Assembly (NCBI GenBank): GCA_032128875.1
Contig: JAVLKG010000001.1
Coordinates: 1,049,453 to 1,113,452, forward strand
Length of the DNA stretch: 64,000 nt
Direction: 5' to 3'
Source: Candidatus Melainabacteria bacterium 17Bon1m
GTDB lineage: Bacteria; Cyanobacteriota; Vampirovibrionia; Obscuribacterales; Obscuribacteraceae
The position numbers and the translations under genes were made by a program. The number at the start of each line of letters is the position of its first letter. The stretch's first letter is position 1. Of the stretch, positions 6,430-9,988 are shown piece after piece. The notes below the pieces were generated by a model. That model saw only the letters and a list, made by a program, of their open reading frames with translations, was not told the origin of the DNA and searched no databases.

Positions 6430-6458
6430 GGAACTGTTACCCTCACGCGTTGGTCCCA
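6430..6458 (+). promoter_or_regulatory. ECF/sigmaE-type promoter GGAAC-N17-GGTC
   Basis: ggaac tgttaccctcacgcgtt ggtccca, upstream of the BON / membrane protein / csbD unit. Confidence 0.55.
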
Positions 6459-6550: not shown

Positions 6551-7144
6551 ATGAAGACCCGAGCCTTTTTCACCCTTTCATCCGTTTTGGCGTCGTTAGC
6601 TCTCACTATCGCTCCAGTCCTTGCAAACAACGGTGTGGAGTTGAAAAATCGACTTGATTCTGCGGAAAGCAGAGGGTCGGTTTCGCGAGAAGCGCTTGTA
6701 CAGTTGCGGGCGGATCAGACAGCACTCGAGAAGCAGGAAGCGGACATTCGCGCTAAATACGATGGCTTGTTGCCGGCTCGAAAGGCTGTAAAGCTTACCA
6801 AAGAGCGGAAAAAGCTGATTGCAAAACTCGACAAAATCGAGTCGAGAAAGCCTGATAACACAGCTCAGAATTACGGTGATGCCCGCAAAGAGTCTCCGAC
6901 ACCACAAGTGCAATCGGGAAAGAAAGCCGACATCGATCGATTGCTTGCGATCAGAAAAGAGTTAGTTGGCGACAAGAGTCTTTCCAGCAACGCCAAGAAT
7001 GTGAAAGTCGTTGTGATCAACGGCACTGTCACTTTGCGTGGTGTAGTGAACAGTGAGTCCGAAAAGGTGAAAGTGGCCAGTGCTGCGCGTAAGTTCGCAG
7101 ATGATTCCAAAGTTTTGGATGAATTGGAGGTAAACACTCAATAA
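6551..7144 (+). CDS. Exported BON-domain protein
   Basis: Signal peptide (..APVLA); C-terminal BON motif LSSNAKNVKVVVINGTVTLRGVVNSESEK. Confidence 0.85.
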   Translation: MKTRAFFTLSSVLASLALTIAPVLANNGVELKNRLDSAESRGSVSREALVQLRADQTALEKQEADIRAKYDGLLPARKAVKLTKERKKLIAKLDKIESRKPDNTAQNYGDARKESPTPQVQSGKKADIDRLLAIRKELVGDKSLSSNAKNVKVVVINGTVTLRGVVNSESEKVKVASAARKFADDSKVLDELEVNTQ

Positions 7145-7168
7145 CTGAGCCTTGTAGGAGGGTTTGTA

Positions 7169-7696
7169 ATGTCAATTGCAGTTGTATGTTTGGTGAATGA
7201 TTTGATGCAGGCTGACACCATTGTTGGCAGCTTGAAGAACGCAGGTTTTAGAAGCGCGGATATCTCTTTGCTTATGCCCGACACCGCGGGCTTCAGAGAC
7301 GCCGGTTATGAAAAACACAGCAAGGCTCCGGAAGGCGCCTCCGCAGGCGCTGGTGCAGGTATGGTGCTAGGTGGTGCTTTGGGTTGGCTGGCTGGTGTGG
7401 GTGCTCTTGCATTGCCTGGTCTCGGTGCATTCATTGCTGCCGGGCCGATCATGGCAGCATTGAGTGGTGCCGCTGTTGGTGGCGCGGTGGGAGGAATGAG
7501 TGGCGGTTTGATCGGGCTTGGGATGCCGGAGATTGAAGCAAAACAATACGAAGGCAAGATGAAAGAGCTGAATCGCATTTTCATTTCTGTTCACACCGAG
7601 AATAAGGACGAGGTAAAAGTAGCCGAGAAGATTTTCAAAGATCTCGGAGCTAAAGACGTAAACGCTATTCACGAGGAAAAGGCGCATACACGCTAG
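7169..7696 (+). CDS. General-stress-type membrane protein with glycine zipper (DUF3341/YflT-like)
   Basis: APEGASAGAGAG..LGGALGWLAG...FIAAGPIMAAL...GLGMPEIEAKQYE. Confidence 0.75.
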   Translation: MSIAVVCLVNDLMQADTIVGSLKNAGFRSADISLLMPDTAGFRDAGYEKHSKAPEGASAGAGAGMVLGGALGWLAGVGALALPGLGAFIAAGPIMAALSGAAVGGAVGGMSGGLIGLGMPEIEAKQYEGKMKELNRIFISVHTENKDEVKVAEKIFKDLGAKDVNAIHEEKAHTR

Positions 7697-7743
7697 TTTT
7701 TAAACCTTACTGAAAATTTGAAAAACTAACAAAGGAGATAGAT

Positions 7744-7941
7744 ATGAACTGGGATCAAATTGAAGGCAATTGGAAACAATTCGAAGGTAAAGTAAAAACT
7801 CAGTGGGGCAAACTCACTGACGATGACTGGAAACTGGTCGAAGGAAAGAAAGATCAGCTGCTCGGAAAAATTCAAGAGCGTTATGGTCATAGTAAAGAAG
7901 CGGCCGAAAAGGAACTCGATGAGTTTTGCGCAAGGCTCTAA
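7744..7941 (+). CDS. csbD: CsbD family general stress protein
   Basis: MNWDQIEGNWKQFEGKVKTQWGKLTDDD...GKIQERYG; SD aaggag. Confidence 0.92.
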   Translation: MNWDQIEGNWKQFEGKVKTQWGKLTDDDWKLVEGKKDQLLGKIQERYGHSKEAAEKELDEFCARL

Positions 7942-7979
7942 TTGCGTTTGCCTCAGTTAGATTGCTTCATAAAAGCAGG

Positions 7980-8009
7980 AAAAAGTCCCGCCTATCGCGG
8001 GACTTTTTT
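7980..8009. terminator. Bidirectional intrinsic terminator
   Basis: aaaaagtcccgc ctatc gcgggactttttt. Confidence 0.85.
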
Positions 8010-8053
8010 GTGAGCTGAAATAACTAATTTGACTCTTTTTTAGCTCACGCGTG

Positions 8054-8138
8054 AAATACAAGAATAAGAAATCGGCGTAGGCACATGCAAACCTACGCCG
8101 ATTTCTATTGTCTTATGAGTTATCGATCCTTGTTCTCT
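8054..8138 (-). ncRNA. Candidate ECF-dependent small RNA (~85 nt) ending in a 15-bp hairpin
   Basis: Promoter at 8171-8144, then an A-rich single-stranded segment, a perfect stem AGAAATCGGCGTAGG/CCTACGCCGATTTCT and a U-rich tail. Confidence 0.5.
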
Positions 8139-8143
8139 GATTA

Positions 8144-8171
8144 CTGGACTAAGCGTCTATACCAAAGTTCC
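8144..8171 (-). promoter_or_regulatory. ECF/sigmaE-type promoter GGAAC-N16-AGTCCAG (minus strand)
   Basis: Reverse complement reads GGAAC TTTGGTATAGACGCTT AGTCCAG; shares GTTGGGAACTT with the 6321 site. Confidence 0.6.
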
Positions 8172-8308
8172 CAACCAAAAAAAGAAATTTTGTTTTTTGC
8201 GCGATTTTAGATCTTTGGTTCCGAGAGACAGCCCTGGTCCAATTTTCTCCAATTGGGTAGAATTGGCTCAGCTGTATCCGGAGTTCTTTGAATTGAAGAT
8301 TGTTGCGT

Positions 8309-9988
<1,680 letters not shown>

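What the first reader, a model, noticed from the sequence alone, without database searches (positions are those of the whole stretch)
8054..8175. Second candidate sRNA: promoter, A-rich seed and 15-bp terminator in ~120 bp
Seen: minus-strand GGAACTT..AGTC (8171-8147), sharing the exact 11-mer GTTGGGAACTT with the 6321 promoter. The predicted RNA is AGAGAACAAGGATCGATAACTCATAAGACAAT, then the stem AGAAATCGGCGTAGG/CCTACGCCGATTTCT, then TATTCTTGTATTT (~85 nt). The only frame is a 13-codon one starting inside the hairpin loop. csbD has its own terminator at 7980. Inference: classic trans-acting sRNA architecture and the non-coding arm of the stress regulon. The hairpin could also terminate pyrG, which ends about 200 nt upstream.
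Basis: partly seen in the sequence, partly recalled or inferred. Interest (0 to 1): 0.75.

Follow-up and report, generated by a model that had tools for sequence, protein, structure and literature searches.

The report
Stress-promoter small RNA in Melainabacteria
A short non-coding RNA gene, conserved across one genus of uncultured non-photosynthetic relatives of cyanobacteria, sits behind a stress-type promoter and may silence a polyamine-uptake operon by covering its ribosome-binding site.

Summary
Downstream of pyrG, eight genomes of one Obscuribacterales/Melainabacteria genus keep the -35 box (GGAACTT), the -10 box (GTCC), an 11-nt core (AUCGAUAACUC) and a 14-nt hairpin-loop block at 98-100% identity, while spacer, flanks and pyrG silent sites sit at 30-43%. 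The stem has compensatory changes, no reading frame is conserved, and nothing reaches an Rfam cut-off. The promoter motif GGAAC-N17-GTC is a genome-wide regulon signal (140 intergenic sites; 51 at N18, 10-22 at other spacings). Best reading: an ~83-nt sRNA with its own ECF-type stress promoter that shares pyrG's terminator. New here: the exact complement of the core lies at -13..-3 of a PucR/CdaR-type regulator heading a potA-potD operon in 10 of 13 genomes, altered in the genome that lost half the RNA; two genomes disagree and duplex energy is not above shuffles. Expression is not shown: the RNA-labelled runs behave as DNA. A new member of a known kind (like MicA/RybB/MicL, FoxI/J, GsrN). The scan had not noted it on other DNA.

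The parts
8165..8171 (-). -35 box GGAACTT of an ECF/sigmaE-type promoter
   Evidence: 7 of 7 columns invariant in 8 genomes; motif enriched genome-wide
8146..8149 (-). -10 box GTCC, 17 nt after GGAAC
   Evidence: 4 of 4 columns invariant in 8 genomes; spacer 42% identical; GGCC in G006
8058..8140 (-). predicted sRNA, about 83 nt; both ends inferred, not measured
   Evidence: alignment A2, model R1
8117..8127 (-). invariant single-stranded core AUCGAUAACUC, proposed seed; complement of G000:C3:1052362-1052372
   Evidence: 11 of 11 columns invariant; mostly unpaired, probability about 0.5-0.9
8128..8137 (-). 5' block GAGAACAAGG, kept in 7 of 8 full carriers and in G006, diverged in G001
8067..8106 (-). 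16-pair hairpin, intrinsic terminator, U-rich on both strands
8080..8093 (-). loop block GGUUUGCAUGU(G/A)CC, 13 of 14 columns invariant; role unknown
   Evidence: no conserved start-proximal complement found
8059..8071 (-). U-rich tail overlapping the base of the stem
   Evidence: sequence
8309..9979 (-). pyrG, CTP synthase; upstream neighbour, probably shares the terminator
   Evidence: no other minus-strand terminator found
7980..8008 (.). terminator of the convergent BON / unnamed 175-aa / csbD operon; possible second stop for the sRNA
   Evidence: letters vary between genomes
7744..7941 (+). csbD-like gene, last gene of the convergent stress operon
   Evidence: PF05532

Best explanation
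A trans-acting small RNA of about 83 nt is transcribed from its own ECF/sigmaE-type promoter inside the pyrG 3' region and ends at a strong hairpin that probably also ends pyrG mRNA. It is the non-coding arm of a large GGAAC-N17-GTC stress regulon. Most likely mechanism: the unpaired core AUCGAUAACUC pairs with mRNA leaders and blocks ribosome loading; the best candidate target is the short leader of a PucR/CdaR-type regulator gene that heads a potA-potD polyamine-uptake operon. Shown: conservation pattern, structure, lack of a conserved frame, regulon motif, conserved complementary site. Inferred: transcription, ends, which sigma factor, stress induction, pairing and repression. Odds: functional sRNA about 0.8; acts by base pairing about 0.65; this target real about 0.4.
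For: Block identities in 8 genomes: -35 1.00, -10 1.00, core 1.00, loop 0.98 against spacer 0.42, upstream 0.43, downstream 0.30 and 33 four-fold pyrG sites 0.40. Stem: 96.9% of 128 cells paired, 6 of 16 pairs with two-sided change, 0 of 500 shuffles as high. Two further full-length copies that were not used to build the model score 102 bits (L035, L043). Motif: 140 intergenic GGAAC-N17-GTC sites, 51 at N18, 10-22 at the eight other spacings; with a second gene set 164 of 185 point at a same-strand gene; neighbours include CsbD, BON, and weak PA2169- and PA2171-like hits. Frames from the loop AUG run 8-36 codons (sense) and 7-58 (antisense) in 10 copies. Target: GAGTTATCGAT is the only exact complement of the core within -40..+20 of 6273 predicted starts, is exact in 10 of 13 genus genomes, marks the peak of conservation of that leader, is non-coding there (in-frame stop just upstream in G000), is absent from 17 of 17 orthologue leaders read outside the genus, where the RNA is also not found (0 of 91), and carries two changes in G006, the one member of a supported six-genome clade that lost the RNA's 3' half. 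Chance: 0.068 expected hits times at most 0.12 conservation, about 0.01. Gene identity: PF13556, TIGR01187 potA over cut-off, PotD-like below cut-off.
Against: No expression data: the two RNA-labelled runs laid give 9-57 kb contigs at flat depth, as DNA would. Duplex energies do not stand out: best -20.2 kcal/mol against -20.4 to -22.0 for 8 shuffled seeds; the proposed target ranks 4th of 6272. G001 keeps the core but has lost the site; G004 keeps the site but the RNA was not found. Counting all 15 conserved 11-mers, the chance bound rises to about 0.15. Five of the six compensatory pairs come from G001 alone. Kin are not independent. No canonical Hfq, CsrA, ProQ or Jag_N found (genome 93% complete); only a cyanobacterial-type Hfq, which is reported not to act as an RNA chaperone (PMC10989914, passages). 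No clear autoregulatory motif ties the promoter to one ECF gene.
Confidence: 0.72

Rival explanations
1. The RNA is real but works through protein binding (decoy or sponge): the invariant loop and core are recognition sites, and the match to the regulator leader is incidental.
For: The loop block is 98% conserved on a stem that changed at five pairs in G001, yet no conserved start-proximal complement of it was found among 49 genus matches, 48 of which were read. G001 and G004 break the RNA/target pairing. No known sRNA chaperone was found.
Against: CsrA is not found and there is only one GGA motif; the core has an exact, conserved, well-placed complement.
Confidence: 0.12
2. The conserved 11-mer is a DNA operator (for example for the PucR/CdaR-type protein itself) placed just after two transcription starts; the RNA is then regulated by that factor or is a by-product.
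For: The core contains the palindrome ATCGAT; both copies lie shortly downstream of a promoter-like element (TAAGAT before the regulator gene); a DNA site needs no energy signal.
Against: One-mismatch copies are not enriched between genes (21 of 114, against 13 of 74 for the reversed word and 14.7% intergenic DNA). The regulator is found in 82 of 104 family genomes but the site only in this genus. It does not explain the invariant loop.
Confidence: 0.07
3. Only a pyrG terminator with a 3' UTR; promoter-like and conserved blocks have no separate transcript.
For: The hairpin is the first terminator found after pyrG; no transcript data exist.
Against: Both promoter boxes are invariant across a freely drifting spacer; the stop-to-promoter distance varies from about 40 to 140 nt; the neighbouring csbD terminator does not keep its loop; pyrG in G004 and in five other family genomes ends without this element.
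Confidence: 0.06
4. A small peptide gene or an antisense brake on the convergent csbD operon.
For: AUG codons lie in the loop on both strands; read-through to the hairpin at 8008-7980 is possible.
Against: Frame lengths and sequences are not kept; two terminators separate the RNA from csbD; the conserved letters are not complementary to csbD mRNA.
Confidence: 0.03

Closest known systems
MicA, RybB and MicL (sigmaE-dependent sRNAs of E. coli)
   Same: Short RNA behind a GGAACTT -35 box (RpoE box as given in PMC8103513, passages); repressor arm of an ECF regulon; MicL's origin in the 3' part of another gene with a shared terminator is recalled, not read.
   Different: No sequence match (no Rfam hit); no canonical Hfq here; the candidate target is a cytoplasmic regulator and polyamine transporter operon, not a porin; the regulon looks like general stress rather than envelope stress.
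FoxI and FoxJ (Fusobacterium nucleatum)
   Same: SigmaE-dependent sRNAs in a distant phylum that lacks Hfq and ProQ, repressing translation through a conserved seed; FoxJ's seed is predicted in a hairpin loop (PMC11005410, abstract and passages).
   Different: Their seed is a C-stretch and their targets are envelope proteins such as FomA; unrelated sequence; they are experimentally shown.
GsrN (Caulobacter crescentus)
   Same: [quoted passage not shown]
   Different: GsrN activates katG, is processed and is influenced by Hfq; here repression is predicted and no processing is known.

Membership tests
Any Rfam family | Covariance-model score above the gathering cut-off | tested here: not met
   Only a tRNA in the whole window; 18 sub-threshold matches in 7900-8320, best 25 bits against a cut-off of 47
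Sigma-factor-driven trans-acting sRNA (class) | Own promoter of the regulon's type, conserved | tested here: met
   Boxes invariant, spacer not; motif enriched genome-wide
Sigma-factor-driven trans-acting sRNA (class) | Intrinsic terminator with conserved structure | tested here: met
Sigma-factor-driven trans-acting sRNA (class) | No conserved reading frame | tested here: met
   10 copies, both strands
Sigma-factor-driven trans-acting sRNA (class) | Conserved single-stranded seed with a conserved complementary mRNA site | tested here: inconclusive
   Site exact in 10 of 13 genomes, two counter-examples, energy not above shuffles
Sigma-factor-driven trans-acting sRNA (class) | Discrete transcript with a primary 5' end, induced by the sigma factor | not testable with these tools
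   Only assembled contigs were offered and they behave as DNA
Hfq-dependent sRNAs (MicA/RybB type) | Canonical Hfq in the genome | tested here: not met
   PF17209 none; cyanobacterial-type PF21979 one copy
CsrB/RsmZ-type sponges | Several GGA loops and a CsrA gene | tested here: not met
   One GGA, not in a loop; PF02599 none

The most novel reading that the evidence does not exclude
A two-module sRNA, working without a canonical chaperone, in non-photosynthetic Cyanobacteriota: the 5' core shuts down a PucR/CdaR-type regulator and polyamine uptake when an ECF-driven general stress regulon of well over 100 promoters fires, while the invariant terminator loop binds an RNA chaperone or second target not yet described. 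It would extend the coding-arm/non-coding-arm design to a lineage with no described sRNA in the papers searched, with several further promoter-plus-hairpin candidates in the same regulon.
Probability: 0.3. Interest if true: 0.62.

Novelty: new member of a known kind. Interest (0 to 1): 0.45.

Why it matters
Melainabacteria are almost all uncultured and three searches of the held library returned no paper describing an sRNA from them. This gives a defined RNA family, a promoter motif for a large stress regulon and one concrete, testable target. If it holds, the sigmaE-type 'non-coding arm' design known from Proteobacteria and Fusobacteriota also arose in the sister group of cyanobacteria, without a canonical Hfq, and links stress to polyamine uptake. 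Its reach is narrow: one genus.

Tried and rejected
Expression: runs X1 and X4 (RNA-labelled) cover the 3-kb stretch with two long contigs each at flat depth, as DNA would; X5 holds relatives' pieces; X6 has one 235-nt contig at 7978-8212, depth 2.3, but the run is probably DNA and was picked with this stretch, so it is no evidence (4 of 21 listed runs laid). Homologues outside the genus: model R1 found none in 91 genomes (strict filters); 13 promoter-plus-core pattern matches in other genera and one in G004 were chance-like, and all 12 that I read (11 of the 13, plus G004) lie in long open frames without the hairpin. Targets dropped: response regulator start M-S-Y-R, exact in G003 and G005 only, silent changes in the other 10 read; Ku coding site, lost at silent positions in 5 of 5 relatives; aminotransferase start complementary to the loop, exact in 4 of 6 and overlapping the stem; a 119-codon gene matching the loop, no orthologue in 5 of 5; loop-complement clusters, none at a shared start codon. 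Energy ranking of targets gave nothing above shuffles. Motif count across the class against a reversed control was uninformative, the control word being commoner everywhere, G000 included. No paralogue in G000. PMC7826278 and PMC11119718 (passages) gave no promoter motif for cyanobacterial or melainabacterial ECF groups; the supplements of PMC7826278, not read, may.

Full report
Setting. The window is G000:C1:1049453-1113452. A pattern scan of the genome collection for the core plus loop gave 8 records, titled Ca. Melainabacteria (3), Ca. Obscuribacterales (3), Cyanobacteria (1) and Burkholderiales (1, a 1.9-kb contig whose PyrG is 89% identical to ours, probably mis-binned). The element lies between pyrG (8309-9979, minus) and a convergent BON / unnamed / csbD operon (6551-7941, plus).

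Observation. The hairpin at 8106-8067 folds at z = -6.5 and passes the terminator scan; no other minus-strand terminator was found between the pyrG stop and the promoter. Rfam has nothing at cut-off.

The promoter is part of a regulon. With my own simple gene calls, GGAAC-N17-GTC occurs 140 times between genes, N18 51 times, and the other eight spacings from 12 to 21 only 10-22 times. With a refined gene set, 164 of 185 intergenic sites point at a same-strand gene, 142 within 250 nt. The -35 box equals the RpoE box quoted in PMC8103513 (passages); the likeness of the -10 box to sigmaE promoters is recalled. The genome has 17 sigma-70 region-2 matches, about eight of ECF size; none of the 16 examined ECF or other sigma genes showed a clear ECF autoregulatory site, though two longer sigma genes have the motif upstream, so the cognate factor is open. 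'General stress' rests on gene content near the sites (CsbD, BON, weak PA2169- and PA2171-like hits) and is inference.

Conservation. The intergenic stretch is more conserved than the flanking genes in BLAST (86-90% against about 73-77% for the pyrG end). In 8 genomes the -35 box, -10 box and the core AUCGAUAACUC are invariant and the loop block is 98% identical, against 42% for the spacer, 43% upstream, 30% downstream and 40% for 33 four-fold pyrG sites. The stem keeps 96.9% of cells paired with 6 of 16 pairs changed on both sides, five of them from G001 alone. The csbD terminator beside it changes letters from genome to genome, so ordinary terminators here do not keep their loops. Frames from the loop AUG vary from 7 to 58 codons. 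Model R1 hits 8 of 104 family genomes, the 8 it was built from, all in the genus, plus two new full-length copies and two cut by contig ends among 13 further loci. Of the other five genus genomes, G006 keeps promoter and 5' part but has lost the hairpin, G004 has pyrG without the element, and G009, G010 and G012 lack the pyrG end in their assemblies; csbD was not found in these five (no positive control in that call).

Mechanism. Energy ranking over 6272 start regions gave no signal above 8 shuffles per seed. The comparative route did: of 50 exact matches to the core's complement in 13 genomes, 8 are the RNA itself and 10 are the same site, 13 to 3 nt before the ATG of a 566-aa PucR/CdaR-type regulator, first gene of a regulator-potA-potD run. 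The site is the most conserved 11-mer of that leader (10 of 13) and is absent from the 17 orthologue leaders read outside the genus (of 69 found). Predicted duplexes are -20.5 to -22.9 kcal/mol in seven carriers, with four extra pairs after the ATG. In a supported clade of six genomes only G006 lost the RNA's 3' half and only G006 changed the site. Against: G001 has the core but not the site (it has a different 12-nt match over the ribosome-binding site of a DUF4331 gene with no orthologue found in G000), and G004 has the site but no RNA found. Background: 0.068 chance hits expected for the core; the same 11 positions are identical in 15 of 128 (G002) and 23 of 125 (G005) orthologue pairs from 400 kb of each genome, giving about 0.01, or about 0.15 if all 15 conserved 11-mers are allowed. 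I put this target at about 0.4. The loop block has no comparable target and stays unexplained.

Chaperones. Canonical Hfq, CsrA, ProQ and Jag_N were not found; one cyanobacterial-type Hfq is present, a type reported not to serve as RNA chaperone (PMC10989914, passages).

Expression. Not shown. The RNA-labelled runs laid yield long contigs at flat depth.

Comparison. It works like the non-coding arms of ECF regulons: MicA, RybB, MicL (PMC8103513, passages), FoxI and FoxJ (PMC11005410, abstract and passages) and GsrN (PMC5869019, abstract and passages). It belongs to none by sequence. Searches for Melainabacteria + sRNA (7 papers, listing and abstract starts only, none on the topic), Obscuribacter + non-coding RNA (0) and Vampirovibrionia + small RNA + sigma factor (0) found no description; the library lacks most subscription journals and no supplements were read.

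Verdict. A real, undescribed, genus-restricted sRNA candidate with unusually clean comparative support and one plausible target; a new member of a known kind. Interest 0.45.

Noticed in passing
G000:C12:121133 (-) and C12:117481 (-); also C1:563079 (-) and C1:344527 (+): Further GGAAC-N17-GTC promoters with no same-strand gene, followed within 55-125 nt by a hairpin and U-run; the two on C12 have similar hairpins. Candidate additional sRNAs of the regulon; they do not match model R1 (C12 pair tested).
   Followed up: partly
window 6430-6455 (+): The BON / unnamed / csbD operon has its own GGAAC-N18-GTC promoter, conserved with much of its spacer (TCACGCG-like) in G011, G007, G003 and G008.
   Followed up: partly
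window 8045-8054: A TCACGCG-like word follows the hairpin in about 6 of 10 copies although the flanks diverge; it resembles the spacer of the promoter at 6430; the palindrome family is over-represented between genes (18 of 46). Unexplained.
   Followed up: partly
   Followed up: partly
G000:C1:337704, C9:113013, C3:923114, C10:218786, C2:406853: Five related ECF-size sigma factors, an expansion that may drive the large regulon; likeness to cyanobacterial SigG is recalled, not tested.
   Followed up: no
G000:C1:348722 (-): A regulon promoter followed by a short ORF of about 25 codons and a terminator: candidate small stress protein.
   Followed up: no
L009 (G006), downstream of pyrG: The locus breaks right after the core: promoter and 5' part kept, hairpin and csbD operon replaced by other DNA.
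   Followed up: partly
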